Of a stretch of DNA of 64,000 nucleotides, positions 3,001 to 33,286 are shown in pieces; position 1 is the first letter of the stretch, and each line of letters opens with the position of its first letter. Made by a program: the position numbers and the translations under genes. The stretch comes from Candidatus Zixiibacteriota bacterium. GTDB lineage: Bacteria > Zixibacteria > MSB-5A5 > WJJR01. The stretch spans positions 7,327-71,326 of the forward strand of contig JACRMA010000043.1 in NCBI GenBank assembly GCA_016235085.1, given 5' to 3'. The notes under the pieces were generated by a model, which saw only the letters and a list, made by a program, of their open reading frames with translations, was not told the DNA's origin and ran no database searches.

Positions 3001-6000
3001 GAATGTCGGAATCGTACCGTCGGGATCGCTGCCATGGGTGCGGAAGACCAGCGTTCCCCCCTCGAGGACTGATTTGGCACCGATGGGATCGAGCACCGGC
3101 GGGCGATTCGTGTTCGTCACCGTGATCGTCACGACCTCTGAGTCGGCCAGAGTCCCGTCGCTGGTAATGAACGTGACATTAAAGACTCCCGACTGGGTGA
3201 AACTGGGATTGAAGACGAACGAACCCGCCCCATTCAGCGAATCGACGAAGGTCGCATTGGCCGGCACGCCGAGCGCCGTCAGCGTCGGAATCGTGCCGTC
3301 CGGATCGGTCGCATGGGTGCGGAACGTTAAGTTCGTGTTTTCCGCCACCGTCTGCGCGCGGATCGAATCGAGCACCGGCGCGCGGTTTGTGTTCGTGACC
3401 GTAATGACGACGAGCTCAGAATCGGCCAATGTGCCATCACTGGTGATGAAGGTCACGTTATAGACGCCGGCCTGCGTGAAGTCGGGGTTGAGGACGAAAG
3501 AGCCCGCCCCATTCAGCGAATCCACAAAGGTGGAGTTGAGCGGGGCGCCGACCACGGCCAACGTCGGGATGGTCCCATCTGGATCGGTCGCATGAGCCCG
3601 GAAGGTCAAATTCGCGTTTTCGGCAACGGTCTTCGCCCTGATGGAGTCCAACACCGGCGGACGATTCGTGTTCGTCACCGTGATCACAACGACTTCCGAG
3701 TCGGCCAAGGTGCCATCGCTGGTGATAAACGTTACATTAAAGACGCCCGACTGGGTGAAGTCCGGATTGAAGACAAACGAGCCGGCGCCATTCAGCGAGT
3801 CCACAAATGTCGCGTTGAGCGGCACGCCGATAGCGGTCAGGGTTGGGATATTGCCGTCTGGATCGACCGCATGAGTGCGGAACGTCAGATTCGCATTCTC
3901 CGCCACTGATTTCGCCCGGATCGAGTCGAGCACCGGGGCGCGATTCGTATTGGTCACCGTGATGGCGACGACTTCGGAATCGGCCAGGAAACCATCACTG
4001 GTGATGAATGTCACATTAAAGACACCCGACTGGGTGAAGTCTGGATTGAACACGAATGATCCAGCGCCATTCAGAGAATCTACGAACGCCGCGTTGACCG
4101 GCAATCCCACCGCGGACAGTGACGGGGCGTTGCCATCGGGATCGGTTGCGTGAACTCGGACGGAGAGATTCGCGCCCTCCGCGACTGTCTTCGCACGGAT
4201 CGAATCCAGGACTGGCGGCAGGTTCACGTTGGACACCGTGATGACCACGATTTCTGAATCTGCCAATGTGCCGTCGCTGGCTATAAACGTCACGTTGAAA
4301 GTCCCCGACTGCGTGTTGTCGGGCGTAAACGAGAAGGAGCCGGCGCCGTTGGTCGAATCCACGAACGTGGCATGCAGCGGCAGATTGACCGCGGTTAGAC
4401 TCGGGATCGTGGCATCAGGATCCGTGGCATGAGTCCGGAATCGCAGCAGTATCGATTCCTGGACAAACTTCGGTCCGATCGGATCGAGCACCGGACACTG
4501 GTTCCCGGCCTCGAGCACATTGATGCGCACCAGCTCGTTGTCGATCGCACCGGCGGGATCCTCGGCTGCAAACGAAATGAAGTACGTCCCTGATTGAACG
4601 AAACTCGGCTGGAATGTGAACAGGCCGGCACCGTTCCCGGAATCCACAAAGACAGCGTTTTGCGGCAGGAAACTCGTGAATAGCGTGATCAGATCACCAT
4701 CCGCGTCGACTGCGTGCACCCGAATCGAGAGTGTGCCGCCCTCGGTGATGGTCCGCGTCCGGATCGAATCCAAAACCGGGGTCCGATTCGTGTTGGTCAC
4801 CGTGATCGTTACCAACTCCGAATCAGCCAGCGTGCCGTCAGAGGCAATGAAGGTCACATTGAAGACACCAGACTGGTTGAAATCCGGGTTGAAGACAAAG
4901 GACCCAGCGCCGTTACCGGAATCGACCAGTGCTGCATTGGCTGGTACGCCGAGCGCTGTAAAGGCGGGAGCATTGCCGTCAGGATCGGTCGCATGAATCC
5001 GGAAGGTCAGATTCGCATTCTCGGCCACCGTCTTGGCACGAATTGAGTCGAGCACCGGGTCACGGTTCGTGTTGGTCACCGTGATCGCGACCACTTCCGA
5101 GTCCGCCAATGTTCCGTCACTGGCGATAAACGTCACATTGTAGACGCCAGATTGAGCGAAGCTCGGATTGAATACGAATGATCCTGCACCATTCAACGAA
5201 TCGACAAAGGTCGCATTCAGCGGAGCACCGACGGCGGTTAGGGTCGGGATGTTGCCATCCGGATCGGCTGCGTGTGTGCGGAATGTGAGATTCGCGTTCT
5301 CGGCAACGGTCTGAGCGCGGATCGAATCCAGCACTGGCGAACGGTTGGTGTTCGTGACCGTGATCGCGACCACTTCCGAGTCGGCCAGGGTTCCGTCACT
5401 GGTAATGAACGTCACATTGATGACGCCCGATTGCGTGAAGTCGGGATTGAAGACGAACGATCCGGCACCGTTGAGCGAGTCGACGAAGGTTGCGTTGAGA
5501 GGAACTCCCACCGCGGTCAAGGTCGGGATCGTGCCGTCCGGATCAGTCGCATGGGTGCGGAACGTGAGGTTCCCATTCTCCGCTACCGTCTTCGCCCGGA
5601 TCGAGTCGAGCACCGGTGGCAGGTTCACATTCGTCACCGTGATCGCGACGACCTCGGAGTCCGCCAATGTTCCGTCACTGCTGATGAAGGTCACATTGAT
5701 GGCACCCGACTGAGTGTAGTCCGGGTTGAACACGAAGGAACCGGCACCGTTCAGCGAATCGACGAAGGTCGCATTAGTCGGAATGCCGATCGCGGTTAGC
5801 GTCGGGACTGTGCCGTCCGGATCGGTCGCATGCACGCGGAAGGTCAGGTTCGAATTCTCGGCGACGGTCCGCGCGGAAGGTCAGGTTCGAATTCTCGGCG
5901 ACGGTCCGCGCCCGGATCGAATCCAGAACCGGCGGGAGACTTACGTTCGCAACTGTTACCGCCACCACTTCCGAGTCCGCCAGAGTCCCGTCGCTGGAGA

Positions 6001-9000
6001 TGAACGTCACGTTGTAGACGCCCGACTGCGTGAAGTCGGGATTGAAGACGAACGAACCGGCGCCGTTGAGTGAGTCCACGAACGTGGCATTGAGTGGCAC
6101 GCCAATGGCCGTCAAGGTCGGGATTGTGCCGTCCGGGTCAGTTGAATGAGTCCGGAAGGTCAGATTCGCGCCTTCGGCCACGGTCTTGGCTCGGATCGAA
6201 TCGAGCACCGGTGGCAGATTTACGTTCGTGACCGTGATAACCACGACTTCGGAGTCGGCTAGTGATCCGTCACTGGTAACGAACGTCACATTGATGACGC
6301 CCGATTGCGTGAAGTCCGGATTGAACACGAATGACCCGGCGCCATTTAACGAATCGACGAAGGTTGCGTTGGAAGGCACACCTACGGCAGTTAGAGTCGG
6401 GATGTTGCCGTCTGGATCGCTACCGTGGGTACGGAACGTGAGATTCGCACCTTCGGCGACAGTCTTGGCACGGATTGAATCCAGGACCGGTGAGCGATTC
6501 GTGTTCGTCACCGTGATGGTTACAACCTCACTGTCCGCCAACGAGCCGTCACTGGCGATGAACGTCACATTGATATCACCCGACTGTGTGAAGTCGGGAT
6601 TGAACACGAAGGAACCAGCGCCGTTCAGTGAATCGATGAAGGTCGCATTCGGGGGAACACCGATGGCACTGATAGTTGGTATGCTACCGTCTGGATCAGC
6701 GGCATGGGTCCGGATGGTCAGATTCGCATTCTCTGCTACCGACCTGGGACCAATCGCATCGAGAATCGGTGTCCGATTGGTGTTTGTCACCGTGATGACA
6801 ACCACCTCAGTGTCCGCCAGTGATCCATCGCTGGCGATCACGGTCAGATTGATCACGCCTGCCTGCGTGAAATCCGGATTAAACACCAGCGAGCCGGCAC
6901 CATTCAGCGAATCGACGAAGGTCGCGTTAGTCGGAATGCCGATCGCTGTTAGCGTCGGGATCGTGCCGTCCGGATCGGTTGCACGCGTGCGGAACGTGAG
7001 ATTGGCGCCTTCGGCAACTGACTTGGGTCCGATCGAATCCAGCACCGGGACCAGGTTCACATTCGTCACCGTGATCGTGACAACCTCGGAATCAGCAAGA
7101 GTCCCGTCCGTCGCAATAAACGTCACATTGATCACACCCGACTGCGTGTAGTCCGGGTTGAACACCAGTGAACCGGCACCATTCAGCGAATCAAAAAACG
7201 TCGCATTCGGAGGGACACCGAAAGCCGTCAGGGTCGGGATTGTGCCGTCGGCATCGGATGCTTGGGTCCGGAAGGTGAGATTGGCGCCTTCGGCGACAGT
7301 CCTCGCCCGAATTGAATCCAGCACCGGGGATCGATTCGTGTTCGTCACCGTGATGGTGACGACTTCGGAGTCCGCCAATGTGCCGTCAGTAGCAATGAAC
7401 GTCACGTTGATGACACCCGACTGCGTAAAGTCGGGGTTGAACACGAACAAACCCGCACCGTTCAGGGAATCCACGAACGTTGCGTTGATCGGCACGCCAA
7501 TGGCCGTCAGGGTCGGGATTGCGCCGTCCGGATCAGTCGCATTCGTCCGGAAAGTCAGATTGGCGCCCTCGGCGACACTCTTCGCCCGGATCGAGTCGAG
7601 CACCGGCGGCAAGTTTACGTTCGTGACCGTGATCGCCACAACTTCGGAATCCGCCAATGTCCCGTCACTGCTGATGAAGGTCACATTGATGACACCCGAC
7701 TGAGTGAAATCGGGATTGAACACGAATGAACCAGCACCATTCAAAGAGTCTACGAACACCGCATTGGGCGGAACTCCAACGGCGGTCAAGGTCGGGATCG
7801 TGCCGTCCGGATCGGTCGCGTGTGTGCGGAAGGATAGATTCGCGCCCTCAGTGACTGTCTTGGCACGGATCGAGTCGAGGACTGGCAGCAGGTTCACATT
7901 CGTCACGGTGATCGCCACGACCTCAGAGTCGGCCAATGTGCCGTCACTCGTAATGAACGTGACGTTAATCACACCCGACTGCGTGAAGTCGGGATTGAAG
8001 ACCAAGGAACCGGCGCCGTTGAGTGAATCGACGAACGTCGCGTTTGGTGGAACTCCGATCGCTGTTAGCGTCGGGATTGTGCCGTCTGGATCGGTCGCGT
8101 GCGCCCGGAAGGTCAGATTCGCGCCTTCGGCGACAGTCTTGGCACGGATCGAATCCAGCACCGGCGGCAGATTCACGTTCGTGACCGTGATCGCGACAAC
8201 CTCGGAGTCGGCCAATGTGCCGTCACTGGTGATGAACGTGAGATTGAAGACACCAGACTGCGTGAAGTCGGGATTGAAGACCAGGGAACCGGCACCGTTG
8301 AGTGAATCGACGAAAGTTGCATTCGGAGGAACACCAATCGCAGTTAGCGTCGGGACTGTGCCGTCTGGATCGGTCGCGTGCGTACGGAATGTCAGATTCG
8401 TGCCTTCGGCAACGGTTTTGGCCCGGATCGAGTCGAGTGCCGGCGGCAGGTTTACATTCGTCACCGTGATCGTGACGACCTCGGAATCCGCCAACGTCCC
8501 GTCACTGGTGATGAACGTCACATTGATGACACCCGACTGGGTGAAGTCGGGATTGAAGACGAAGGAACCAGCACCGTTGAGCGAATCGACAAATGCCGCA
8601 CTCAAAGGTACTCCGATCGCGGTCAACGTGGGAATTGTGGCGTCTGGATCAGTTGCGTGGGCGCGGAAGGTGAGATTAGCGCCCTCGGCAACGGTCTGCG
8701 CACGGATGGAGTCCAAAACCGGCGCACGGTTCGTGTTGGTCACCGTGATCACGACGACTTCGGAATCCGCCAATGTCCCGTCACTGCTAATGAACGTCAC
8801 ATTGAACACGCCCGCCTGAGTGAAGTCCGGATTGAAGACGAAGGAACCGGCGCCGTTCAGCGAATCGACGAAAGTTGCGTTGAGCGGAGCGCCTAGAACC
8901 GTAAAGGTCGGGACTGTGCCATCCGGATCGGTCGCCTGAGTGCGGAACGTCAAATTCGCATTCTCTGCTACCGTCTGGGCCCGAATCGAATCCAGGACCG

Positions 9001-12000
9001 GGGCACGGTTCGTGTTCGTCACCGTGATCGTGACGAGCTCGGAGTCGGCCAGGGCACCGTCACTGGTGATGAACGTTACATTAATGACACCCGACTGGGT
9101 AAAGTCCGGATTGAACACGAAGGAACCAGCACCGTTCAACGAATCGACGAAAGTCGCGTTGGGCGGTACACCAACCGCGGCCAGGGTCGGGATTGTTCCG
9201 TCCGGATCGGTTGTGTGAATCCGGAAGGTCAGATTCGCATTCTCCGCAACCGTCTTGGCGCGAATCGAATCAAGGACCGGCGGAAGGTTCACATTCGTCA
9301 CCGTAATCGTGACCACCTCAGAATCGGCAAGCGTGCCGTCGCTGGTGATGAAGGTCACGTTAATGCCACCCGCCTGGGTGTAGTCCGGATTGAACACGAA
9401 CGAACCGGCGCCGTTGAGCGAATCGACGAACACTGCATTGGCTGGCACACCCACGGCGGTTAGTGTGGGGATCGTGCTGTCGGGATCCGTCGCGTGTATC
9501 CGGAAAGTAAGATTGGCGCCTTCGGCGACAGTCTTCGCCCGGATCGAATCCAGAACCGGCGGTAGACTCACGTTCGCAACTGTTATCGCCACCACTTCCG
9601 AGTCAGCCAGTGTCCCGTCGCTGGTGATGAACGTCACGTTGTCGACGCCCGACTGCGTGAAGTCCGGATTGAAGACGAATGATCCGGCACCGTTGAGCGA
9701 ATCGACGAACGTAGCATTGAGTGGCAAGCCAATGGCCGTCAGTATCGGGATCGTGCCGTCCGGATCGGTCGCATGGGTGCGGAAGGTCAGATTCGCGCCC
9801 TCGGCCACGGTCTTGGCTCGGATCGAATCGAGCACCGGCGGCAAGTTCACGTTCGTGACTGTGATCGCCACAACTTCCGAGTCAGCCAGGGTTCCGTCGC
9901 TGGTAATGAACGTCACATTGATGACGCCCGACTGCGTGTAGTCGGGATTGAACACGAATGAACCAGCACCATTAAGCGAATCGACGAACACTGAGTTGGG
10001 TGGTGCCCCGACGACCACAAACGTCGGATTCGTGCCGTCCGGGTCAGTCGCATGCGTCCGGAAGGTGAGATTGGCGCCCTCTGCCACAGTCTTCGCCCGG
10101 ATTGAATCCAGGACCGGGGAGCGATTCGTGTTCGTCACGGTAATCGTGACGACTTCACTGTCGGCCAACGATCCGTCGCTGGCGATGAATGTCACGGTTA
10201 CATTGCCGGATTGGGTGTAGTTCGGGTTGAACACGAATGATCCCGCACCGTTCAGCGAATCGACAAAGGTCGCATTAGGGGGAACTCCGACGGCGCTGAG
10301 AGTCGGGACGGTACCATCTGGGTCAGAGGCATGTGTCCGGAACGTCAGGTTGGCATTCTCTGCCACCGTCTTCGCCCGAATTGAGTCGAGGACCGGCGGC
10401 AAGTTCACGTTTGTGACCGTGATCGTCACTAGCTCAGAGTCTGCCAGCGTTCCGTCACTGGTGATGAACGTCACATTAATCACGCCCGACTGCGTGTAGT
10501 CGGGGTTGAACACGAAGGATCCGGCGCCATTCAGCGAATCGACGAACACTGCATTCGGTGGAGCACCCACGGCGGTCAGTGTCGGAATCGTGCCATCCGG
10601 GTCAGTGCCATGCGCCCGGAAGGTCAGATTGGCGCCCTCCGCCACCGTCTTCGCGCGAATCGAATCCAGCACTGGTGAGCGATTCGTGTTCGTCACCGTG
10701 ATGGTCACGACTTCACTGTCCGCCAACGAACCGTCACTGGCGATGAACGTCACATTAATGGCACCCGACTGCGTAAAGTCGGGATTGAACACAAAGGAAC
10801 CAGCACCATTGAGTGAATCAACGAATGTGGCGTTCGCCGGAACGCCGACTGCCGTCAGGGTTGGGATTGTCCCATCGGCATCCGAGGCGTGCGTACGGAA
10901 CGTGAGGTTTGCGTTCTCGGCGACACTCTGCGCACCAATAGCGTCGAGGACAGGTACCCGGTTCGTATTCGTCACCGTAATGGCAACCACTTCGGAATCC
11001 GCGAGCGCTCCATCGCTGGAGATGAAGGTCACATTAATCACGCCCGACTGGGTGAAGTCGGGGTTGAACACGAATGACCCGGCACCGTTGAGCGAATCGA
11101 CGAACACCGCATTCGGTGGAACGCCGACGGCAGTCAATGTTGGAATCGTGCCGTCCGGATCGCTGGCGTGGGTGCGGAACGTCAGATTGGCGTTCTCGGC
11201 CACCGTCTTCGCCCGGATTGAATCCAAAGTCGGCGGCAAGTTCACGTTCGTGACGGTGATCGCCACAACCTCGGAGTCCGCCAGCGTGCCGTCGCTGGCG
11301 ATAAACGTCACATTAATCACGCCCGACTGGCTGTAGTCCGGATTGAACACCAGCGAACCCGCGCCGTTCAGCGAGTCGACAAACGTCGCATTCGGAGGGA
11401 CACCGAGAGCCGTCAGGGTCGGGACTGTGCCGTCGGGATCGGACCGGCGGGCGATCGGTGTTCGTGACCGTAATCGCCACCACCTCGGAATCGGCCAGAA
11501 TGCCATCGCTCGCGATGAAGGTCACGTTGATCACACCCGACTGCGTGAAATCGGGGTTGAAGACCAGAGAACCCGCACCATTGAGTGAATCCACGAACAC
11601 GGCGTTTGGTGGAGCTCCCACGGCCGTCAAAGTCGGGGTTGTCCCGTCTGGATCGGAGGCATGTGTCCGGAACGTCAGGTTGGCGTTCTCGGCGACCGTC
11701 TTCGCCCGGATCGAATCCAGAACCGGCGGCAGATTCACGTTTGTCACCGTGATCGCGACCACTTCCGAATCCGCCAGCGAGCCGTCCGACGTGATGAAGG
11801 TCACGTTGATCACGCCCGACTGCGTGAAGTCGGGGTTGAACACGAACGAACCTGCACCATTCAGCGAATCAACAAACACCGAGTTGGGCGGCGCACCGAC
11901 CACGGTGAAGGTGGGATTGGTGCCATCGGGATCGGTCGCGTGTGTTCGGAAGGTCAGATTCGCACCCTCGGCGACACTCTGCGCGCGGATCGAGTCGAGC

Positions 12001-12325
12001 ACCGGCACCCGATTCGTGTTGGTCACGGTGATGGCGACAACTTCGGAATCCGCCAGCGTTCCATCGCTCGCGATAAACGTGACGTTGATGACTCCGGCCT
12101 GCGTGTAGTCCGGATTGAAGACAAACGAACCGGCTCCATTGAGCGAATCGACGAAGGTCGAATTGAGCGGCGCACCAACGACGGTGAATGTCGGTGTCGT
12201 GCCATCGGCGTCGGTGGCATGCGTGCGGAAGGTGAGATTGGCGCCCTCCGCCACGGCCTGGGCGCGAATAGAGTCGAGAACCGGCGCCTGTCCGCCTGGG
12301 AATTGGATCGCAAACCAGGCAACGT
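1..12325. repeat. Tandem array of near-identical 279-bp coding repeats (~44 units), the body of the giant adhesin gene.
   Basis: Recurring blocks such as ttgaacacgaa.gaaccggc.ccgtt.agcgaatcgacgaa recur with 279-bp periodicity (for example plus-frame ORF starts at 10227 and 10506). Protein-level repeat identity is greater than 80%. Confidence 0.85.
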
Positions 12326-13460
12326 CGGCGGCCGAGCCTGTCCCGTCGCGCGTCACGCCCAGCGCGGTGGTGCTGGTCAAGTTGTGAGTGAAGGCGATTT
12401 CATCAAGACGGGAGGTGGAGGTGCCAGACCCCCCGCGCACATTAATGAGAGTGGCCGTGTTGGCAATTACGACCGGAGTCAGAGTTGCTGATCCGGTGGT
12501 GAGCGTGCTGCCAACCGCTATTGTCCCTGACTGCACGGTGGACGCATCGGTCAACGTCACGACTTCCCAGGCAACGTCCGCCGTGTTGGTTGTGGAGATA
12601 CGATCAAAGGTGAGCTGGGTTGCGGTCGTGATCCGGCCGCGAACGGAATATTGGGCTTCAATCCCATTTGTCGCAGCGGCACCGCGCCCGGACATGACGA
12701 GGAACGACTTGGCCAGATTGACTGATGTAATCGTGGCGGTAGCGGAACTGGCGCCCGAGGCAATCGTTGTCAGCCCGCGCTGGACCGATGCGCCAGTGTA
12801 CGAGACGACCTGCCAGTAGACATCGAGGGCGATCCCCGACTCGTTCCGGGTCAGTGCGAGATTGGTCGAGGTCGTCAATTGCGCGCGCACCGTCCACTGT
12901 TCATCAATCGTGCCACTCGCCGAGTTGGCTGCGACTGAAACCAGGACAAAGCTCTCGGCAAGATTCGCGGAAGTGATCGTCACGTTGACCGTCGTTGCGG
13001 CGGTCGAGAACGCAGCGGTGCCGCGCTGGACCGATACACCGGAAAGGAACTCGACCGCCTCCCAGTTGGCCGCGGTCGTTATCGCCGGAGAACCGAGACG
13101 TTGAAGATTGAGCGTTGTCCCGCTGGCGAGCTGGTAGCCGAAGCGGGTCGAATTGGCATTGGCGCTTGAGTTGCGTCCGCCGCCCCACTGAATCCCGCCC
13201 CAGACGATCGTCTTGGTGGCATCGACCGTGGTCAGAGTTACCGGGAGGGTATTCGCACCGGAAGTGAAAGTCGCGGTGCCGCGCTGAACCGATTTGATGA
13301 CCGCCGCGTGGACGGGATTGGCAGAGACGAGCAGGGCGAGAGCAGCAATCAAGAACAGAGCGCTCGCATTCACTCGGTACCCGGAACAACGCGAACCGCT
13401 GCGGAACGAAGATAGTCCCACAGTGGCCGTCGCCGCTTTCCTGATCGCCGGGGCGCGCAT
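1..13460 (-). CDS. Giant secreted tandem-repeat adhesin, 5' portion (N-terminal signal peptide at 13460; 3' end lies beyond the window start). Three ~100-aa 'VQRG' N-terminal repeats are followed by ~44 cadherin-like/He_PIG Ig-like 93-aa repeats. The reading frame is disrupted (see findings).
   Basis: Minus-strand ORFs 11313..13460, 5774..11506 and 625..5835 are contiguous pieces of one repeat-coding frame. N-terminus MRAPAIRK...ALFLIAALALLVSANPVHA is a signal peptide. The repeat unit ...PVLDSIRAKTVAENANLTFRTHATDPDGTIPTLTAVGVPLNATFVDSLNGAGSFVFNPDFTQSGV.NVTFI.SDGTLADSEVV.ITVTN.N... matches the He_PIG/dystroglycan-type cadherin-like pattern. Plus-strand ORFs in this span are antisense frames of the same repeat. 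Confidence 0.7.
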
Positions 13461-13503: not shown

Positions 13504-16140
13504 CTACTTCATCAACACCATCTTCTTCGTTTCCGAATTGCCGCCGGTGGTCAGGCGATAGAAGTACAGCCCGCTGGCCATCGTTTGTCCGGCTTGATCA
13601 GTGCCATCCCATATGTATTCATATCGGCCGGGCCCCAGGGTCCCATCGAACAGGGTCTTCACCTGCTGGCCCAGGAGATTGTAGACGACGAGGTAGACGG
13701 CAACGGACGGACCGCTGCTGCCGAGATCGCCCAGAGTGAACGCAATCGTTGTGGTTGGGTTGAACGGATTCGGATAGTTCTGGTCCAGGACAAAGCTTCT
13801 CGGAACCGGACTGACTCCGGAAACTTCGATCTGGCTGGCGTCCGGCGCGGCGAGCTTAAGCTCCTGCAGGCGGACCGTTGGTTCGCCCAGTGCCGGCGCG
13901 GAAGACAACGGAATGCGCAACACATCATGCCGGCCGGTCCGCATGTTGGGTGGACCACCCATCAGATTAAAGAGGAGCGCGCGCAAGTGCCCCTGGCCAT
14001 CGTCACGGAACCGCAACTGCATGTTGGTCGCGACGGCAAGGGCCTCCGGAGAACCGAGTGTCACCGTCGCGGGATCGTAGGCCAGTTCGACTTGGGCGCC
14101 CGCGACGTCCGAAGGCAGATCGGCCGACAGGCGGAAGGCGCCGCTGGGACCATCGTTACGGTCATAAATGAACTGCACGGTGGCGGGTGTGCCACCCACA
14201 GGCGGCACTCCGGGAGCCGGAACCACCGGGGCGCCGAAGATGTGGTTGATAATCGCCTGGAGATCGAAGACGTCGACGAAATTGTCGGCGTTGGTATTCG
14301 CCGCGCCAAACTGTCTCGGGTTAAACGGGAATGTCCCGAGGATGTAACCGACGACCGTGACGATATCCGCGACGTCAATACGCGTGTCCAGGTTTGCATC
14401 GCCCAGATTGTCGACCATGATGACGCCGTCGGTGGTCGCGATCGATGCAGAAGGCTCGGTGGGATCGGGATCGATCGAACCCCAGGCATCTTCGAACATC
14501 ACCGGGTAGGCGCCCGGTGCAACCGCTGGATTGATCGAACCAATCACATTGAATAGAACGGTTGTTGTTCCGTTCGCCACCGACTGGCCGGTCAGTGAGA
14601 AAGCGACGATGCGAATTCGTCCGGCGGTGGTTCCCATGTTGTCGTATACCGTGAATCCGATGAGTCTGTCGCTGGTTTGGATGGCGCTCGGTGTGAAGAT
14701 CGTGGCATCGTAGACAAAATCGAACTGAACACCGTAGGAAGCCTTCACATTCAGAAAGTTGATCGGAATCACCACTCCGCCCGTGCCGGGGACTCCGCCC
14801 TGCGCCTCCTGGCCGGGAGCAGACGTGGAGAACAAGCGATCAACCTGTACTTGATTGACCGTGATGGTCACGTTGCAGATAACGCTGAGATTATTCGCTG
14901 TGTCCTTGGCCTGGAATCCGACCGAGAAAATTCCGGACTGCGTGAAGCTGGGCGTCCATTTGAACGTTCCGGACGCCGAACCGGTCCCGCTGACCGGATT
15001 CGCGGGGAGCAGGGAATAACCCGTCGGCGCGTTCACGGGATACAATTGAATCGGATCATTATTGGCATCCGAAGCGCTGATGTTGAACGAGACTTCCTGT
15101 CCCTGATCGACCGTATAGCTGGTGTTTGACGGGCAGATCACCACCGGTGCCACGTTTCCGGTCGGCTGGGTCACCGTGATTGTGACATTGCAAAAACCGC
15201 TGGAGAGACCACCGGGTTGATCCGTCGCCTGGAAACTGACCGTGAAGTTTCCCGTCTGCGAGCTCGTCGGAACCCACGAGAAGTTTCCCGTCGCGGATCC
15301 CGTACCGACTACCGGGTTTGAGGGCGAAAACGATGCGCCGGTTGGCAGGTTGGTCGCGAGGAGAGAAACTGTGTTTCCGTCGGGATCAGTCGCGGGAACA
15401 GCGAATTGCACCAACTGCCCGGCACTGACCGTCACAGGCGCAGGGCAACTTGTGATTGAAGGAGGGTTGTTCCCGCCTCCGGTGGTAATCGTGATCGTTC
15501 CATTGATGAGAACAGGACGCCAAATAAGCAAACCGCTGATTTGAGCAAAGGTGTTGTCCGTTTGCGGATAAACTGGGTCATTCTCAAATGCGATGCTGGC
15601 CGTCTGCGGGGACGCCGTGGACCGGATGAGCCAGCGCATACGAACCGTCGCTCCCGCACCCGGCAGGAAGATATCGGGAGCGGATTTTGGGGCCTGATCC
15701 AACGCGAGCAGTTTGTAGACACCCGATGACGGAAGGCCTTCCGACCAGATGTCCGCATCCATCGCAGGAGACACGGTGGAGAAAGCCGTGCCCCGGATTT
15801 CCGTTGAGCGCTCCGCGGCGATTACCGTGTCAACGCCTGTTATGACAGTATCCAGTAACGGCGAGATAACACTCGGGTCATAGCGAACGCGAAATGTGAA
15901 CGCTCCTAATGTGTCCGCGTTGCGAATGTACAGATCGACATTCACTGTATCGCCCGGGTGCGCGATGGTCACGTTCACGATCCGCATGGTGTCCAGGGTC
16001 GACGGAGTCTGTGCCCAGGCGGAGCCAGCCGATAGGAGCAGCGATGCCGCCGACACAATGGCAATGACCAGAATGATGCGGCACAGCCCTGACACGGGTC
16101 TTCCGCAGGATCTTTCTCGATTTGTTTTCATGGACTTCAT
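13504..16140 (-). CDS. T9SS-secreted modular scaffoldin-like protein: signal peptide, cohesin-like module, two He_PIG/Ig-like domains, second cohesin-like module, dockerin-like module, third cohesin-like module, Por/T9SS C-terminal sorting domain.
   Basis: ORF 13504..16230 with the likely start at ATG 16140 (MKSMKTNRE..., signal peptide ...LLSAGSAWAQ). Cohesin-like signatures: GDTVNVDLYIRNADTLGAFTFRVRYDPSVISPLLDTV, GVQFDFVYDATIFTP, AGAQVELAYDPATVTL. Dockerin-like pair: GDANLDTRIDVADIVTVVGYILG / NTNADNFVDVFDLQAIINHIFG. C-terminus LDQNYPNPFNPTTTIAFTL...SGLYFYRLTTGGNSETKKMVLMK is a typical T9SS CTD. Confidence 0.75.
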   Translation of the reverse strand: MKSMKTNRERSCGRPVSGLCRIILVIAIVSAASLLLSAGSAWAQTPSTLDTMRIVNVTIAHPGDTVNVDLYIRNADTLGAFTFRVRYDPSVISPLLDTVITGVDTVIAAERSTEIRGTAFSTVSPAMDADIWSEGLPSSGVYKLLALDQAPKSAPDIFLPGAGATVRMRWLIRSTASPQTASIAFENDPVYPQTDNTFAQISGLLIWRPVLINGTITITTGGGNNPPSITSCPAPVTVSAGQLVQFAVPATDPDGNTVSLLATNLPTGASFSPSNPVVGTGSATGNFSWVPTSSQTGNFTVSFQATDQPGGLSSGFCNVTITVTQPTGNVAPVVICPSNTSYTVDQGQEVSFNISASDANNDPIQLYPVNAPTGYSLLPANPVSGTGSASGTFKWTPSFTQSGIFSVGFQAKDTANNLSVICNVTITVNQVQVDRLFSTSAPGQEAQGGVPGTGGVVIPINFLNVKASYGVQFDFVYDATIFTPSAIQTSDRLIGFTVYDNMGTTAGRIRIVAFSLTGQSVANGTTTVLFNVIGSINPAVAPGAYPVMFEDAWGSIDPDPTEPSASIATTDGVIMVDNLGDANLDTRIDVADIVTVVGYILGTFPFNPRQFGAANTNADNFVDVFDLQAIINHIFGAPVVPAPGVPPVGGTPATVQFIYDRNDGPSGAFRLSADLPSDVAGAQVELAYDPATVTLGSPEALAVATNMQLRFRDDGQGHLRALLFNLMGGPPNMRTGRHDVLRIPLSSAPALGEPTVRLQELKLAAPDASQIEVSGVSPVPRSFVLDQNYPNPFNPTTTIAFTLGDLGSSGPSVAVYLVVYNLLGQQVKTLFDGTLGPGRYEYIWDGTDQAGQTMASGLYFYRLTTGGNSETKKMVLMK

Positions 16141-16866
16141 TGAGAAGCCCCCTTTCGGGACGGTTAATATGCCTGCAAGGTCTTGCATACTTTCGACTTC
16201 GTCATGGTCAGCCATTCTCTGCACCTGCATGTGGCTTCACCACATTCCGCACTGCATCCGTCGTCGCTGGCCGCCGCGCATCGCTTGGCGGTCAACAGGT
16301 TAGCCCCACTCTTCGGGGCCTCCGGGGAGGGGGGCATCCGGGCAATGACAGGCGGCGTTCAAACCGTTCGCAGTAAGTGCATTGCGGATTCCTGCTTCGC
16401 CAAGGCTTCGCAGGATTTAGGTGGAATGGCGTTCCGCGCCGGAGCCGATCACCGTCCTTTCGCGATGTGGGGGTGGGGTGAAAGTGGACAAAGCGGACGA
16501 GGTGGACGAAGTGGACGAGGACCAAGAGGCAAGTGTCGTCACACGCGTGGGCTCGCCGGCGACCGGGTGGACTGTGTCCACTGGGCGGGTGGGCTCAAGC
16601 TTGTGGCGAACAATGGTGGTCACTGGGCATCCTCTCTATCAACAAAAAACCCCGTCGCGAACAGATCATGCGCCCTAAACTGGGCGCAGCGGGCGGGGAT
16701 CAGCAGTACTTCAAGCAGCATAACTTGTTTCGACCTGCATTTGCTCCTGCCCGCCTGATTGACGGCAGGGGCGGCTTCATCGTTCTCAGTTGTGCAGTCT
16801 TTGTTCCTCCTCTCGTCCGCCTGGCACGCCGTTCCGTCGGCGCCTCGCATTTCTTGGTAAGCAGAT

Positions 16867-16894
16867 CCCGTCCCGTCCAAAAGGACGGGACGGG
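16867..16894 (-). terminator. Perfect 12-bp stem / 4-nt loop hairpin (CCCGTCCCGTCC-AAAA-GGACGGGACGGG) 20 nt downstream of the stop of the 16914..19862 gene; candidate transcription terminator without a U-tract.
   Basis: The inverted repeat is read directly from the sequence and sits immediately 3' of a stop codon. The lack of a U-rich tail lowers confidence. Confidence 0.45.
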
Positions 16895-16913
16895 ATTGCG
16901 TGAACTACAGACT

Positions 16914-19862
16914 TTACTTCATCAGCACCATCTTCTTGGTGGCGGTGAAGTCCTTGGCAGTCAGGCGATAGAAGTACATACCGCTGGCAACCGAGGAGCC
17001 GTTCTCGGAGCTGCCATCCCACGACACGCTCACAGGACCCTGGCCGTTACCGGAGAAGGTACGGACAACCTGACCCGCGATGTTGTAGATGGACAGATTC
17101 CAATCAGACTGGTCCTTCAAGGAGAACTGGATCACCGTGCCCGCGTTGAACGGGTTCGGGTAGTTCTGCAGGAGGGCGTAGCTGGTCGGGACTCTCGAGG
17201 AGGCGTTGACGGACAGAAGCGCACCGCTGGCATCCGACACCTGGGACTCAGCAAGCTCGACCGTGCCGTTGCCGGAGACCGGAACGGTGATCAGGTTGTT
17301 GAGACCAGCCGGGACCTTGGCACCCGCCGCAGTTCCGTAAACCAGAATGCGGAGTTCGCCGTTGGCCGAGGTGGACTTGACCTGGAGGTTGGTGCCCGAC
17401 ACGAGCGAGGGCTGGCCAACCGTCACGCCAGAGTAGTGGTACACGAACAGGGCACCGCCGAGATCGACGTTGGCGTTCGTGCGGATGTTCAACGTACCGT
17501 TGGTCACGTCAGAATTGACGGCCACCGAGTTGGCATAGGGCGACAGCTTGAAGCCCGAGCCCTGCGGCGGGAACGGCTGTGCGTCACCGGTGATGATGCG
17601 AATGAGGTACACCAGATCGGCGACGGTCAGAGGCATGCCATCGTTGTTGATGTCGCTGGCAAGAACCTGAACCGCACGCAGGTTGGCGTTGGACTCAAAC
17701 ACGTTGATGCCGGAGATGAAGTAGCGGCTGTACAGGACCGCGTCGCCGATTTCGTTGGCCACGCCGTTCAAGTTGAGGTCGCCACGATCATCGGGCGGAC
17801 GCTGGATGCAAATCGCACCTGAGCAGAAGTCGATGAACGGATTGACTTCGTGACCCGGCTTGTTGTTGCCGACACAGGTCCAATCCGGGCCCAGGGTGAT
17901 GTCAGGATCGGTCGTGGAAGGAACGTACAGCGTGTAACCGTCCTTGGACGACAGCGAGTTGTCGGTGCAGTCGAACGAGCAGAAGCCAACATGCGGACAG
18001 AGGCCGATGTTGTTGAGGTTGCCGTCTACCTGGAACGTGATCAGGGCAATCACACCGCCGAGGACAAACGCGCCCGGAGCGGGGGTGATGCCGTTGTTGA
18101 TGTCGGCAATACCGACGATCTTCACGTAGCCATTCGGGCATCCACCGCCGCAATTGCCGCCGAAGGCGCCAGTGCGATAGGTGAAATACTCGAAGGACGG
18201 ATCAAGGTTCGGACCACGGGCAACCTTCGAGAAGATCAGGATGCTTTGATCGTAGCAGATCAGGAATTCAAAGCCGCCTGTGCCGCCTGAAGGACCGGTT
18301 GCCGGGTTGACCCAGATACCGAGGGTCTTTTGCACGCCATAAAGGGACGGCGCGTAGGTCACAATGTGCCCGATGGCGGCGGAATCCGGATCCACGATGC
18401 AGATCTGATACGGGGATTCGAACAGCACGTCGACGCAGCACGGAGCCGAGGTGACACAACCATCAAAAGCGGTGAAGCACACGCTGTAAGGCGTGTTGTC
18501 GCCGGACGGACGAGCGCCGACGATCTGGTTGCCGGAGATGCTGAGCCATGACGGCCAAGTACCGGACGCGGCATAAGTCAGGGCATCGCCGTCAGCCTGG
18601 CTGGCCGGGCCCATGGTGATCGAGAGGGGCACGCCAGTCGGGGCGGTCACGGGAGCCGGATTCGAGCAGGTTGCCGGATCGTTGGTGACGGACAAGGTGA
18701 AGTTGCAAGTGGCCGATCCGCCAGTCGCATCCTGCACGGTGACGGTGATCGCATGGTCGCCGACTTGCTGGCAGTTGGACTCGTCTGTCCACACGCCATT
18801 CACATCGACGGAACCAGGAGCACCACCACTGAAGGTGTAAGGCGGGCAACCGCCGGTCACGCCGATCGTCTTGGAGGCAAGCTCGCCCCAATGGACGGAG
18901 ACGTTACCGCAGTTGCTGGTTACTGGAGCGGTTCCAGCCACATCAACGTGGAACGTGGCGGTGCCGCAATTGCCTTGACCGTTGGAATTGTAAACTTCGA
19001 ACACCACGTCAAAGCCGGGGTAGTCGGCGCATGTCGGGGTGTATGACCAGGTACCAGCACCAGCCGGCGGGCCAGGAGTTGTCGTGGAGACAACACCGGG
19101 GCCAGAGATCTTGGCGAAGGTATTGGCTTCGTCGTCCGAGGAAGAAAGAGCCTTGGACGCCGCGACGCCAACCGTCGCACTCACGGTAGCCAGATTGGTG
19201 GTGTTGGTCGGGCACGGGTTGCAAATGACATTGACGACGCCCTTGTTGAATACCGCAACGATCGGCGGTGTGCCGGAGGCTCTCACGAAAACAAAGTGAT
19301 TTGCCGGATCGGCGCAAGCGGTGTCAATCTCGAACGACCCGGGACAAATCGGGTTCGTCCCGGCGTTGATTGTGAACGAGGGCGAGGTGCCATCCGTACC
19401 GGCTGGCAGAGTCGCTCCAAGGATGATACCACGAACGATCATCATTCCAGCCGGAGACGAGCTAACCGGCATGGTGCTCACATCAAGACCTTCGTCTCCA
19501 GTAGACGGAGTCGCATCAGGACCCGGCCAAATCGTGCCGAATCCCGTGCCGCACGCGGCCGCATCGGGAGCCTGATAACCGTTGTAGATCATGACATCGG
19601 CGAGCTTGCCATTCATACGGCCCGAATTGACAGTGAGACCCAGGCTTGTGATGAATGATCCACCGCTAACGGTACGAATAGTCAACGGCGCGATGATGTA
19701 CTTGAGGGCCAGGTCGTTGGTGACGAACACACCGATGTTGGCAGTGCCACCAGCCCCGATCGTGAGCGACTCGACGGTCATTTGGTTGGCCGCAAAGATC
19801 GCCGCACTCGACAGGAAAACCAAACAGGCTGCCAGGCAAATTGTTAATGCAAAACGCTTCAT
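16914..19862 (-). CDS. T9SS-secreted large surface protein: signal peptide, Cys-rich regions, at least one cohesin-like module, a dockerin-like module and a Por/T9SS C-terminal sorting domain.
   Basis: ORF 16914..19925 with the likely start at ATG 19862 (MKRFALTICLAACLVFLSSAAIFA), preceded by GGAG 8 nt upstream. Cohesin-like GFEFLICYDQSILIFSKV. Dockerin-like DLNLNGVANEIGDAVLYSRYF...DINNDGMPLTVADLVYLIRIITG. C-terminus LLQNYPNPFNAGTVIQFSL...SGMYFYRLTAKDFTATKKMVLMK. Confidence 0.75.
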   Translation of the reverse strand: MKRFALTICLAACLVFLSSAAIFAANQMTVESLTIGAGGTANIGVFVTNDLALKYIIAPLTIRTVSGGSFITSLGLTVNSGRMNGKLADVMIYNGYQAPDAAACGTGFGTIWPGPDATPSTGDEGLDVSTMPVSSSPAGMMIVRGIILGATLPAGTDGTSPSFTINAGTNPICPGSFEIDTACADPANHFVFVRASGTPPIVAVFNKGVVNVICNPCPTNTTNLATVSATVGVAASKALSSSDDEANTFAKISGPGVVSTTTPGPPAGAGTWSYTPTCADYPGFDVVFEVYNSNGQGNCGTATFHVDVAGTAPVTSNCGNVSVHWGELASKTIGVTGGCPPYTFSGGAPGSVDVNGVWTDESNCQQVGDHAITVTVQDATGGSATCNFTLSVTNDPATCSNPAPVTAPTGVPLSITMGPASQADGDALTYAASGTWPSWLSISGNQIVGARPSGDNTPYSVCFTAFDGCVTSAPCCVDVLFESPYQICIVDPDSAAIGHIVTYAPSLYGVQKTLGIWVNPATGPSGGTGGFEFLICYDQSILIFSKVARGPNLDPSFEYFTYRTGAFGGNCGGGCPNGYVKIVGIADINNGITPAPGAFVLGGVIALITFQVDGNLNNIGLCPHVGFCSFDCTDNSLSSKDGYTLYVPSTTDPDITLGPDWTCVGNNKPGHEVNPFIDFCSGAICIQRPPDDRGDLNLNGVANEIGDAVLYSRYFISGINVFESNANLRAVQVLASDINNDGMPLTVADLVYLIRIITGDAQPFPPQGSGFKLSPYANSVAVNSDVTNGTLNIRTNANVDLGGALFVYHYSGVTVGQPSLVSGTNLQVKSTSANGELRILVYGTAAGAKVPAGLNNLITVPVSGNGTVELAESQVSDASGALLSVNASSRVPTSYALLQNYPNPFNAGTVIQFSLKDQSDWNLSIYNIAGQVVRTFSGNGQGPVSVSWDGSSENGSSVASGMYFYRLTAKDFTATKKMVLMK

Positions 19863-31612: not shown

Positions 31613-31619
31613 AATGAAT

Positions 31620-31645
31620 GGTGGGCAGAGCCCACCCTACATTCG
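31620..31645. repeat. Family C hairpin element GGTGGGCAGAGCCCACCCTAC; an identical copy at 33271–33291. Both lie just 5' of gene starts (aconitase gene; ccl).
   Basis: Identical 21-mer at two loci, each immediately upstream of a start codon on the minus strand. Confidence 0.7.
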
Positions 31646-31646
31646 A

Positions 31647-32180: not shown

Positions 32181-32365
32181 GGGATTTTCCTCGCTATGGT
32201 CTACAATTGTCGCGAAGGATCACTCGGTTTGGGGTGACGTCAAGGGGCTGAAAGCCCCTTGTCCGCAATCGTGGCTATCAGCGCGATATGGGTACCTCAA
32301 TCGCCGCTCTGCTATTTACGGACTTTGTGGTCAATACTCTGCACCGTTGCCATTGAGCATGCCGC

Positions 32366-32432: not shown

Positions 32433-32468
32433 AGCCCGCGCCACCTGTCGGATTGTGGACACTCAGTA

Positions 32469-33248: not shown

Positions 33249-33286
33249 GATTGCTCCTGACGTACAAAAGGTGGGCAGAGCCCACC

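What the first reader, a model, noticed from the sequence alone, without database searches (positions are those of the whole stretch)
13504..19862. T9SS-exported cohesin–dockerin scaffold proteins (cellulosome-like surface assembly system coupled to type IX secretion)
Two adjacent large proteins each combine a signal peptide, one or more cohesin-like modules (F.F..YDPSV(I/L) signature, three in the first protein), Ig/He_PIG domains, a dockerin-like Ca-binding duplicated segment and a Por/T9SS C-terminal sorting domain. Cohesin and dockerin in one polypeptide with a T9SS anchor suggests a self-assembling cell-surface scaffold. Dockerin-bearing partners are encoded at 21512–22255 and 60963–64000. 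If the modules are genuine, the genes encode a modular surface complex delivered by type IX secretion rather than by a Gram-positive-style sortase/SLH anchor.
Basis: partly seen in the sequence, partly recalled or inferred. Interest (0 to 1): 0.8.

Follow-up and report, generated by a model that had tools for sequence, protein, structure and literature searches.

The report
T9SS-anchored cohesin–dockerin surface proteins, Zixibacteria
Two neighbouring genes of an uncultured Zixibacteria bacterium encode outer-surface proteins built from the "plug and socket" modules (dockerin and cohesin) known from cellulosomes, but carrying a type IX secretion tail and lying next to a giant adhesin gene. They most likely hold that adhesin and other proteins on the cell surface rather than digest cellulose.

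Summary
Window 13504-19862 (- strand) holds two genes of a Zixibacteria MAG.

- **Shared plan.** Both proteins run: signal peptide, N-terminal module, Ig-like spacers, cohesin, dockerin, cohesin, T9SS type-A C-terminal domain (CTD).
- **Protein 2** has two cohesin-fold modules that Pfam misses. Its dockerin-like module is atypical (13-residue loops) and only weakly supported.
- **Dockerin partners.** The proteins at 21512-22255 and 60963-63995 carry genuine C-terminal dockerins.
- **Conserved cluster.** The order small dockerin protein, protein 2, protein 1, giant cadherin-like adhesin recurs in at least six other Zixibacteria loci. In the one locus where the giant adhesin is complete, it ends in a dockerin and has no CTD.
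- **Reading.** No carbohydrate-active enzyme or carbohydrate-binding module is present. This looks like a non-cellulosomal adhesin-display system, not a cellulosome.
- **Precedent.** T9SS-anchored cohesin scaffolds have been proposed in silico for Cloacimonadota, and cohesin–dockerin-linked giant proteins for Chlorobiota.

Verdict: a new variant of a known kind. Binding and T9SS export are inferred, not shown.

The parts
13504..16140 (-). Gene 1 (protein 1, 878 aa from ATG 16140; NCBI model starts at GTG 16095, 863 aa = P0001). Annotated 'T9SS type A sorting domain-containing protein'.
16012..16140 (-). Protein 1 Sec signal peptide (…LLLSAGSAWA|QTPSTLD)
   Evidence: Read from the sequence; the family alignment shows a conserved A|QTPS junction
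15481..16011 (-). Protein 1 cohesin module 1 (D1)
   Evidence: Partial Pfam Cohesin hit, 23.4 bits. Family profile vs PDB: type II cohesins 3l8q E=2.5e-7, 1tyj E=1.4e-6
14851..15480 (-). Protein 1, two He_PIG / Big_9 Ig-like spacer domains
   Evidence: Pfam He_PIG 58.9 bits, Big_9 42.1 bits
14407..14850 (-). Protein 1 cohesin module 2 (D2)
   Evidence: Pfam Cohesin 28.7 bits, above the 24.1 cutoff
14233..14406 (-). Protein 1 dockerin with two canonical 12-residue Ca loops (DANLDTRIDVAD, NTNADNFVDVFD). It abuts D2 with no linker.
   Evidence: Pfam Dockerin_1 28.5 bits as a segment. Ligand positions are invariant or nearly invariant in 32 orthologs
13801..14187 (-). Protein 1 cohesin-fold module 3 (D3), directly before the CTD
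13507..13800 (-). Protein 1 T9SS type-A C-terminal sorting domain
   Evidence: TIGR04183 35.7 bits (cutoff 23), FlgD_ig 39.8, Por_Secre_tail 30.0
16914..19862 (-). Gene 2 (protein 2, 982 aa), a distant paralog of protein 1 with the same C-terminal cassette
19788..19862 (-). Protein 2 signal peptide. MKRFA.T..LAACL is almost invariant in 27 orthologs.
19218..19787 (-). Protein 2 N1 domain: an unannotated ~185-aa domain. Fold not determined.
   Evidence: No Pfam or PDB hit. 392 cluster representatives at E<=1e-3. 17 of 46 sampled members also carry a dockerin
18417..19217 (-). Protein 2 Cys-rich Ig-like region (Big_9 / He_PIG / HYR-like)
   Evidence: Pfam Big_9 34.3 bits, He_PIG 27.9 bits
17799..18416 (-). 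Protein 2 cohesin-fold module (D2) with Cys-rich insertions
   Evidence: No Pfam hit. D2 part of the AF2 model mostly pLDDT 70-94. Foldseek top 41 PDB hits all cohesins, E 6.6e-9, TM (target) up to 0.83
17583..17798 (-). Protein 2 atypical dockerin-like module with 13-residue loops (DLNLNGVANEIGD, DINNDGMPLTVAD)
   Evidence: Pfam 12.1 bits, E=0.24. PDB profile: best two hits are dockerins, E=0.015 and 0.3. hhalign to protein 1's dockerin 75%. AF2 pLDDT <50, three helices
17187..17582 (-). Protein 2 cohesin-fold module D3, homologous to protein 1 D3
   Evidence: hhalign 95.7%; joint alignment A7; the model built from A7 has the cohesin fold
16917..17186 (-). Protein 2 T9SS type-A C-terminal sorting domain
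   Evidence: TIGR04183 51.1 bits, Por_Secre_tail 34.6 bits
21512..22255 (-). Protein 3 (HZB43_05830, 247 aa): signal peptide, unknown ~145-aa domain, Cys-containing C-terminal dockerin (about 21515-21709). Syntenic partner.
   Evidence: Dockerin_1 27.5 bits. PDB profile 5lxv_B E=1.5e-5. prot3-like genes sit upstream of the protein 2 homologs in L004 and L005
60963..63995 (-). Protein 4: FG-GAP repeats, Ig domain, C-terminal dockerin (about 60966-61148) of the same Cys-containing subtype as protein 3. Its N-terminus may lie beyond the window.
   Evidence: FG-GAP_3 139 bits. Dockerin_1 27.1 bits as a segment.
1..13460 (-). Giant cadherin/Big_9-repeat adhesin gene directly downstream of gene 1. 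It runs off the window start and is split into overlapping ORFs plus an in-frame stop. The complete ortholog in L005 ends in a dockerin.
   Evidence: Synteny. L005 C-terminal Dockerin_1 28.3 bits as a segment and no CTD
16865..16896 (-). Perfect 14-bp stem / 4-nt loop hairpin 18 nt after the stop codon of gene 2. Possible terminator or attenuator between the two genes.

Best explanation
The two genes encode paralogous secreted proteins of a Zixibacteria bacterium. Each has the plan: Sec signal peptide, N-terminal module, Ig-like spacers, cohesin, dockerin, cohesin, T9SS type-A CTD.

Shown:
- the domain composition;
- that the cohesin folds are genuine;
- that the dockerins of proteins 1, 3 and 4 are genuine;
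- conservation of the cluster [small dockerin protein -> protein 2 -> protein 1 -> giant cadherin-like adhesin] across Zixibacteria;
- a C-terminal dockerin on the one giant adhesin whose end could be read.

Inferred mechanism:
1. After Sec export, the CTD directs both proteins through the type IX translocon. They stay on the outer membrane (CTD removal and lipid/LPS attachment, as in Bacteroidota).
2. Their divergent cohesin modules each bind, Ca2+-dependently, one dockerin type of the cluster. Candidates are the giant adhesin, the small protein 3, the FG-GAP protein, and each other's internal dockerins.
3. The result is a non-cellulosomal anchoring/adaptor complex that displays a giant adhesin and accessory binding proteins on the cell surface.
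For: - **Paralogy.** The C-terminal halves of the two proteins are related.
- **Families.** About 30 full-length orthologs of each protein, nearly all from Zixibacteria MAGs or metagenomes. Some protein 1 orthologs are already named 'cohesin domain-containing protein'.
- **Synteny.** Protein 2, protein 1 and the giant adhesin are adjacent in L001, L005, L084 and L085. L002 and L004 show partial versions.
- **Upstream gene.** The gene upstream of protein 2 ends in a protein 3-type dockerin in the window, L001, L004 and L005.
- **Giant adhesin.** The L005 protein (3344 aa) ends in a dockerin (28.3 bits as a segment) and has no CTD.
- **Not a cellulosome.** No CAZyme or CBM appears in the cluster or elsewhere in the window.
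- **Diderm with LPS.** Kdo/Lpt genes and a BamA/TamB-like pair are in the window.
- **Precedents in the same superphylum.** Ca. Stygibacter (PMC8542988) and Chl. chlorochromatii Cag_2037/2038 (bioRxiv 10.64898/2026.03.19.712371).
Against: - No cohesin–dockerin pairing was tested. No multimer modelling was available.
- T9SS core genes (sprA, porU/V, porK-N) are absent from the 64-kb window, and the rest of the genome could not be searched.
- The C-terminus of the window's own giant adhesin lies outside the window. The dockerin is known from a single ortholog (L005, about 39% identical cluster).
- The dockerin-bearing partners lack a CTD, so how they cross the outer membrane is unexplained.
- Protein 2's dockerin has non-canonical 13-residue loops and a low-confidence model.
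- D3 sits where many T9SS cargos have an Ig-like pre-CTD domain, so it could be a structural stalk.
Confidence: 0.6

Rival explanations
1. Self-assembling surface coat. Each protein carries both plugs and sockets (cohesin–dockerin–cohesin). Proteins 1 and 2 (and the third paralog seen in other genomes) would mainly bind each other's dockerins, head to tail, forming a polymer or lattice on the outer membrane. External partners would be secondary.
For: Cohesins and a dockerin share one polypeptide in both paralogs. The paralogs are always adjacent. The cohesin–dockerin–cohesin–CTD cassette is reused at the C-terminus of unrelated large proteins in Ignavibacteria and other Zixibacteria.
Against: The cluster also encodes three or more proteins that have a dockerin but no cohesin. 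This argues for external clients. The cohesin modules outnumber the internal dockerins and differ greatly from one another. No interaction data exist.
Confidence: 0.2
2. True cellulosome analogue. The cohesin proteins would be scaffoldins that collect dockerin-bearing hydrolases encoded elsewhere in the genome, for polysaccharide or protein degradation. This was proposed for Ca. Stygibacter.
For: Multi-cohesin proteins with a surface anchor. In other FCB phyla, dockerin plus CTD is found on an M14 carboxypeptidase with BACON domains (L036). The Stygibacter proposal.
Against: Neither protein has a CBM. No dockerin-bearing enzyme is present in the window or in the conserved cluster. The syntenic clients are an adhesin, an FG-GAP protein and small non-enzymatic proteins. 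The cohesins are divergent singletons, not repeated near-identical modules as in enzyme-integrating scaffoldins.
Confidence: 0.1
3. Structural modules only. The cohesin-fold domains would be plain beta-sandwich spacers or pre-CTD stalk domains, and the dockerins Ca2+-dependent stabilising elements. There would be no specific cohesin–dockerin pairing, and the proteins would be ordinary T9SS adhesins.
For: D3, protein 2's D2 and N1 fall below Pfam and PDB sequence thresholds. D3 occupies the position of the Ig-like domain that precedes the CTD in many T9SS cargos. Gemmatimonadota proteins have dockerin plus CTD without an intervening cohesin (L034).
Confidence: 0.1

Closest known systems
Ca. Stygibacter (Cloacimonadota) putative cellulosome-like complex (Williams et al. 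2021, PMC8542988)
   Same: Also an FCB-superphylum diderm, and also an in-silico proposal. It has a non-catalytic cohesin-bearing protein with a T9SS CTD proposed to attach it to the cell's own surface, and separate signal-peptide proteins with C-terminal dockerins.
   Different: The Stygibacter scaffoldin is 3,755 aa with tandem cohesins and CBM2/CBM3. Its clients are hydrolases (GH18, GH57, peptidases). Here the proteins are about 900-1000 aa with no CBM. Each carries its own internal dockerin between two divergent cohesins. The conserved clients are a giant adhesin, an FG-GAP protein and a small unknown protein.
Chlorochromatium epibiont Cag_2037/Cag_2038 (Chlorobiota) cohesin–dockerin pair on giant BIg-repeat proteins (bioRxiv 10.64898/2026.03.19.712371)
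   Same: Also an FCB-group bacterium. Adjacent genes include a giant Ig-repeat protein with a C-terminal dockerin next to a cohesin-bearing protein. The proposed role is adhesion and cell-surface tethering, not cellulose degradation.
   Different: There the cohesin sits on a T1SS-exported RTX protein, and no T9SS CTD anchor is involved. There is a single cohesin and a single dockerin, with no cohesin–dockerin–cohesin cassette.
Clostridial adaptor and anchoring scaffoldins (e.g. A. cellulolyticus ScaA/ScaB, C. thermocellum SdbA/OlpB)
   Same: They carry cohesins plus a dockerin in one polypeptide (adaptors) or cohesins plus a cell-surface anchor (anchoring scaffoldins). The cohesin folds are the best structural matches.
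   Different: They are Gram-positive, anchored by SLH domains or sortase. Their cohesins are repeated and similar. Their clients are CAZymes, and type II dockerins are preceded by an X module. Here the anchor is a T9SS CTD in a diderm, the module preceding the dockerin is itself a cohesin fold, and no CAZymes are involved.
Non-cellulosomal cohesin/dockerin proteins of archaea (Archaeoglobus fulgidus 2xdh; ANME scaffoldin-like proteins, PMC9012536)
   Same: Cohesin and dockerin occur in organisms that do not degrade cellulose. Proteins combine one dockerin with several cohesins, and their function is unknown or presumed to be surface assembly. 2xdh is among the structural hits.
   Different: These are archaeal, with S-layer contexts and no T9SS.

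Membership tests
Cohesin (Pfam PF00963) | Sequence match to the family model above the curated threshold | tested here: met
   Protein 1 scores 44.2 bits as a whole and 28.7 for D2 (cutoff 24.1). The D1 profile hits solved type II cohesins at E=2.5e-7. This is NOT met for D3 of either protein, or for D2 and N1 of protein 2: no Pfam hit, and best PDB profile E of 0.08-0.4.
Cohesin (Pfam PF00963) | Elongated beta-sandwich (jelly-roll) cohesin fold | tested here: met
Cohesin (Pfam PF00963) | Binds a cognate dockerin | not testable with these tools
   No multimer prediction or experiment was available.
Dockerin type I (Pfam PF00404) | Sequence match above the curated threshold | tested here: met
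   Protein 1: 28.5 bits as a segment and 21.9 in the whole protein (cutoff 22.9). Protein 3: 27.5 bits. Protein 4: 27.1 bits as a segment. Protein 2: only 12.1 bits, E=0.24. Its profile hits the solved dockerin 3ul4_B at E=0.015, so protein 2 is inconclusive.
Dockerin type I (Pfam PF00404) | Two 12-residue Ca2+-binding loops (D/N at positions 1, 3, 5, 9, 12), each followed by a helix | tested here: met
   Protein 1 has DANLDTRIDVAD and NTNADNFVDVFD, with ligand positions invariant or >=90% conserved in 32 orthologs. Protein 2's loops are 13 residues (DLNLNGVANEIGD, DINNDGMPLTVAD), invariant in 27 orthologs. That is not canonical. The AF2 model shows three helices but at pLDDT <50.
T9SS type-A cargo (TIGR04183 / PF18962 CTD) | CTD model hit above cutoff at the extreme C-terminus | tested here: met
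   TIGR04183 scores 35.7 and 51.1 bits (cutoff 23). Both hits end 2-3 residues before the stop codon.
T9SS type-A cargo (TIGR04183 / PF18962 CTD) | N-terminal Sec signal peptide | tested here: met
   By inspection only, since no predictor was available. Each has a basic n-region, a hydrophobic core and an AxA-type site (AWA|QTP; IFA|AN).
T9SS type-A cargo (TIGR04183 / PF18962 CTD) | Genome encodes the T9SS machinery (SprA, PorU, PorV, PorK/L/M/N) | not testable with these tools
The same CTD type is abundant in FCB-superphylum MAGs including Zixibacteria. No paper in the library links Zixibacteria with T9SS.
Cellulosome (sensu stricto) | Dockerin-bearing carbohydrate-active enzymes as clients | tested here: not met
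   The dockerin carriers in the window are protein 1, protein 2, a small unknown protein and an FG-GAP protein. By synteny there is also a giant adhesin. No glycoside hydrolase is in the window. The rest of the genome was not examined.
Cellulosome (sensu stricto) | Scaffoldin with a carbohydrate-binding module and repeated similar cohesins | tested here: not met
   There is no CBM hit. The cohesin modules within and between the two proteins are so divergent that profile-profile comparison barely links them.

The most novel reading that the evidence does not exclude
The cohesin–dockerin contacts form in the periplasm. Proteins that have a dockerin but no CTD (the giant adhesin, the FG-GAP protein, protein 3) would then ride through the type IX translocon bound to the CTD-bearing cohesin proteins. 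On this reading, cohesin–dockerin–cohesin–CTD is a portable 'export-and-anchor adaptor' cassette used across several FCB phyla: Zixibacteria and Ignavibacteria, with dockerin–CTD variants in Gemmatimonadota. This would explain why every client in the cluster lacks its own outer-membrane export signal.
Probability: 0.1. Interest if true: 0.85.

Novelty: new variant of a known kind. Interest (0 to 1): 0.5.

Why it matters
Cohesin–dockerin assembly is understood almost entirely from Gram-positive cellulosomes. This case matters for four reasons.

- **A defined system in a diderm.** It is a conserved gene cluster in an uncultured diderm phylum. The same modules are joined to a type IX secretion anchor and appear to hold a multi-thousand-residue adhesin on the outer membrane.
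- **A testable set of parts.** Five or six divergent cohesins and four or five dockerin subtypes can be tested for pairing specificity.
- **A reusable cassette.** The cohesin–dockerin–cohesin–CTD cassette recurs in other FCB phyla.
- **An open question made concrete.** How do dockerin clients without a CTD reach the surface of a diderm?

It also shows that Pfam misses most of the cohesin modules here, so such systems are probably under-counted in metagenome annotations.

Tried and rejected
- **Exact-sequence look-ups.** Look-ups of protein 3 and P0001 in the contig index found nothing. The rest of the source contig (118,785 bp) could therefore not be read, neither the 3' end of the giant adhesin gene nor any T9SS genes.
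- **PDB profile searches.**
  - Protein 2 N1: no hit.
  - Protein 2 D3 alone: spurious ubiquitin hits.
  - Protein 2 D2: only non-significant cohesin hits, E=0.4.
  - These modules needed structure prediction.
- **Local hhalign.** It gave a spurious 88% between protein 1's D2 and its CTD. It fails to link modules that are both confirmed cohesin folds. I therefore treated neither its positive nor its negative results as decisive.
- **Genome-contig scan with the family alignment.** It was dominated by the CTD motif QNYPNPFN. That made it useful for the CTD's distribution and the cassette search, but poor as a census of true orthologs.
- **Rfam.** No RNA family was found in the window.
- **Promoter/terminator scan.** Counts did not exceed the number expected from shuffled sequence.
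- **Literature.** No paper combines Zixibacteria with dockerin, T9SS or cellulosome, or Latescibacteria with cohesin and dockerin. Peer et al. 2009 is not held.
- **Rejected idea.** I rejected the cluster being a cellulosome proper: it has no CAZymes and no CBM.
Full report
**What is at the coordinates**

The finding spans two genes on the minus strand. Gene 2 runs 19862→16914 and gene 1 runs 16230/16140→13504.
- Gene 2 starts at ATG 19862, 8 nt after AAAGGAG.
- Gene 1 most likely starts at ATG 16140, 7 nt after GAAAGGGGG. The public gene model starts at GTG 16095.

Protein 1 is 100% identical to an NCBI protein named 'MAG: T9SS type A sorting domain-containing protein [candidate division Zixibacteria bacterium]', on a 118,785-bp contig. 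Protein 3 is HZB43_05830 of the same contig. GC content is about 0.59 throughout the window, so nothing suggests a foreign island.

**Protein 1 domains**

Residue numbers in the two domain sections count from each protein's first residue: the 863-aa NCBI model for protein 1, and the 982-aa protein starting at ATG 19862 for protein 2.

Whole-protein hits:

| Model | Bits | Cutoff |
|---|---|---|
| He_PIG | 58.9 | – |
| Cohesin | 44.2 | 24.1 |
| Big_9 | 42.1 | – |
| FlgD_ig | 36.8 | – |
| TIGR04183 | 35.7 | 23 |

Segment scans place the modules as follows:
- A full cohesin at aa 441-547 (28.7 bits).
- A partial cohesin hit at the N-terminus (23.4 bits).
- A dockerin at aa 564-621 (28.5 bits).
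- Nothing at aa 637-765.

Further tests on the weaker modules:
- A 17-sequence family profile of the N-terminal module hits solved type II cohesins significantly: 3l8q at E=2.5e-7 and 1tyj at E=1.4e-6, aligned over about 130 positions.
- The unassigned module (D3) was modelled from a 29-sequence alignment and reached pLDDT 91.7.
- Foldseek returns only cohesins among its top 50 PDB hits.

The dockerin has two canonical 12-residue loops, and the ligand positions are invariant or at least 90% conserved in 32 orthologs.

**Protein 2 domains**

Pfam and NCBIfam see only the CTD (TIGR04183 51.1 bits), Ig-like domains and a 12.1-bit dockerin trace. None of about 28 orthologs carries a precomputed cohesin or dockerin hit.

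- **D2 (aa 483-688).** A model of aa 483-760 built from 20 sequences is confident over D2, with most 10-residue blocks at pLDDT 70-94. Its top 41 Foldseek hits in the PDB are all cohesins (E 6.6e-9, target TM up to 0.83). This is a cohesin fold with Cys-rich insertions.
- **D3 (aa 761-892).** It aligns with protein 1's D3 (hhalign 95.7%).
- **Dockerin-like segment (aa 689-760).**
  - It is nearly invariant in the family.
  - Its two loops are 13 residues long rather than 12.
  - Its profile gives solved dockerins as the two best PDB hits (E=0.015 and 0.3).
  - hhalign to protein 1's dockerin gives 75%.
  - The model shows three helices at pLDDT <50.
  - I call it a divergent dockerin-like module, probable but not proven.
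- **N1 (aa 26-215).**
  - It has no Pfam or PDB match.
  - An exhaustive profile search finds 392 cluster representatives at E<=1e-3.
  - The domain often follows a signal peptide directly.
  - In 17 of 46 sampled proteins it is combined with a Pfam dockerin.
  - Its fold is undetermined.

**Relationship of the two proteins**

The CTDs, D3 modules and dockerins are homologous between the two proteins, and the module order is identical. The two are therefore old paralogs that share a cohesin–dockerin–cohesin–CTD cassette. In both, the dockerin follows the preceding cohesin with no linker, and a Pro-rich linker precedes D3.

**Partners and context**

A motif scan finds dockerin loops in only four proteins of the window.
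- Protein 3 (21512-22255) has a signal peptide, an unknown domain of about 145 aa and a dockerin (27.5 bits; profile hit to 5lxv_B at E=1.5e-5).
- Protein 4 (60963-63995) has FG-GAP repeats and a C-terminal dockerin (27.1 bits as a segment). This dockerin belongs to the same Cys-containing subtype as protein 3's, ending …NG.xPC.

Directly downstream of gene 1 lies a giant cadherin/Big_9-repeat gene. It runs off the window and is broken by frameshifts and one in-frame stop.

The rest of the window is housekeeping: RF1 and a probable PrmC (read from the translation, not scanned), TldD/PmbA, aconitase, ATP-citrate-lyase-like genes, IDH, Kdo/Lpt genes, CTP synthase, a BamA/TamB-like pair, HtrA, and an ECF sigma/anti-sigma pair. 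No T9SS core gene, CAZyme or CBM is present.

**Conservation**

The order protein 2-like → protein 1-like → giant adhesin recurs in these loci:
- L001 (1.57-Mb contig), L084 and L085.
- L002 and L004, both cut by a contig end.
- L005.

L004 and L005 are only about 39% identical to the window's proteins. They add a third paralog and start with a protein 3-like gene. In L001 the upstream gene also ends in a protein 3-type dockerin.

L005 is the only locus with a complete giant adhesin (3344 aa). It ends in a dockerin (22.3 bits in the whole protein, 28.3 as a segment) and has no CTD. This is the main basis for the adhesin-display model. For the window's own adhesin it is an inference.

**Beyond Zixibacteria**

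Local HMMs of the modules were run on 80 loci fetched through the CTD motif.
- The cassette [Cys-rich cohesin – 13-loop dockerin – D3 – CTD] closes large proteins in Ignavibacteria (L008, L038) and an unclassified MAG (L024). Variants occur in other Zixibacteria: L004 and L015 carry all four modules, while L005 and L069 show no D3 hit.
- Gemmatimonadota carry dockerin+CTD proteins, including an M14 peptidase (L034, L036).

**Mechanism**

- Shown: module identities, module order, synteny and the client set.
- Inferred from established T9SS biology in Bacteroidota: Sec export, CTD-dependent passage through the translocon, and CTD removal with surface attachment.
- Inferred from cohesin–dockerin biology: Ca2+-dependent, type-specific pairing.

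The cohesins are highly divergent from one another, and there are at least four dockerin subtypes. This fits an adaptor with distinct sockets better than an enzyme-integrating scaffoldin with repeated identical sockets.

The unresolved step is how clients without a CTD cross the outer membrane.

**Comparison with what is known**

- T9SS-CTD cohesin scaffoldins with dockerin enzymes were proposed in silico for Ca. Stygibacter.
- A cohesin–dockerin link between adjacent giant Ig-repeat proteins was proposed for a Chlorobiota epibiont.
- Non-cellulosomal cohesin/dockerin proteins, with one dockerin plus several cohesins, are described in ANME archaea.
- Nothing in the searched literature links Zixibacteria with dockerins or T9SS.

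I therefore rate this a new variant of a known kind. Its distinguishing features are the internal cohesin–dockerin–cohesin–CTD cassette, the paralogous pair and the giant-adhesin client.

**Verdict**

The function (surface display of an adhesin, not a cellulosome) is the best-supported inference, at about 0.6 confidence. Interest is 0.5.

Noticed in passing
window 19218-19787 (-), protein 2 aa 26-215: N1 is an unannotated ~185-aa domain with the conserved motif …F.IDTTC..PANH…. It has no Pfam or PDB match but 392 cluster representatives at E<=1e-3. It usually follows a signal peptide directly, sometimes occurs in tandem, and 17 of 46 sampled proteins also carry a C-terminal dockerin. It is a candidate for a new domain family. 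Its fold is unknown.
   Followed up: partly
window 19788-19862 (-): The signal peptide of protein 2 (MKRFA.T..LAACL..) is almost invariant across 27 orthologs that are only 45-50% identical overall. It contains a lipobox-like LAAC. Such conservation is unusual for a signal peptide. It might reflect lipidation, a special targeting signal or a constraint at the nucleotide level.
   Followed up: no
window ~16010 (protein 1) and ~22150 (protein 3): In the families of both protein 1 and protein 3, the predicted mature N-terminus begins A|QTP(S/K), with the Gln conserved. From memory, this resembles the 'Q-rule' (N-terminal pyroglutamate) described for signal peptidase I substrates of Bacteroidetes.
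   Followed up: no
window 16865-16896: A perfect 14-bp GC-rich hairpin with a 4-nt loop lies 18 nt after the stop of gene 2. No T-run follows it. It sits in the ~770-nt (16141-16913, from the likely ATG 16140) spacer before gene 1. In L001 this spacer holds a 177-aa ORF that is absent here.
   Followed up: partly
window 19926-21511: A ~1.6-kb stretch between protein 3 and gene 2 has no convincing ORF and no Rfam hit. GC is lower (0.55) in the 2-kb composition window that covers it (20001-22000). A near-consensus sigma-70-like promoter (11/12) lies at 20659-20631 on the minus strand.
   Followed up: partly
window 1-13460 (-): The giant cadherin/Big_9 adhesin gene appears as overlapping ORFs (11313-13460, 5774-11506, 625-5835) plus an in-frame stop near 625. 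The repeats continue to the window edge. These are either assembly errors in near-identical repeats or a pseudogenised or phase-variable gene.
   Followed up: no
window 21515-21709 and 60966-61148: The dockerins of proteins 3 and 4 form a distinct subtype. They have conserved Cys residues (…DVNCD…) and sit at the extreme C-terminus, ending in …PPC / …APCW. The same tail appears in many N1+dockerin proteins.
   Followed up: partly
L034 7574-20096 and L036 (Gemmatimonadota chromosome CP070758.1): L034 has four tandem genes, each ending in dockerin+T9SS CTD without an intervening cohesin. L036 encodes a 2179-aa M14 carboxypeptidase/BACON protein with dockerin+CTD. Dockerin–CTD fusions thus appear in a second FCB phylum (Gemmatimonadota) as well.
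   Followed up: partly
window 29657-37218: Two ATP-citrate-lyase-like genes (ATP-grasp_2 plus citrate-binding domain; CoA-ligase plus citrate-synthase C-terminal domain) lie next to aconitase and isocitrate dehydrogenase. This hints at a reductive TCA cycle in this Zixibacteria MAG.
   Followed up: no
L001 1770-6459, L084 481-5190, L085 762-4615: In three other Zixibacteria genomes the cohesin cluster is preceded by a conserved set of genes: an epimerase (L001 and L084 only), a phosphopantetheinyl transferase, an AMP-binding enzyme, a carrier protein and a class I/II aminotransferase. This looks like a lipid or amino-lipid pathway. The set is absent upstream in the window.
   Followed up: no
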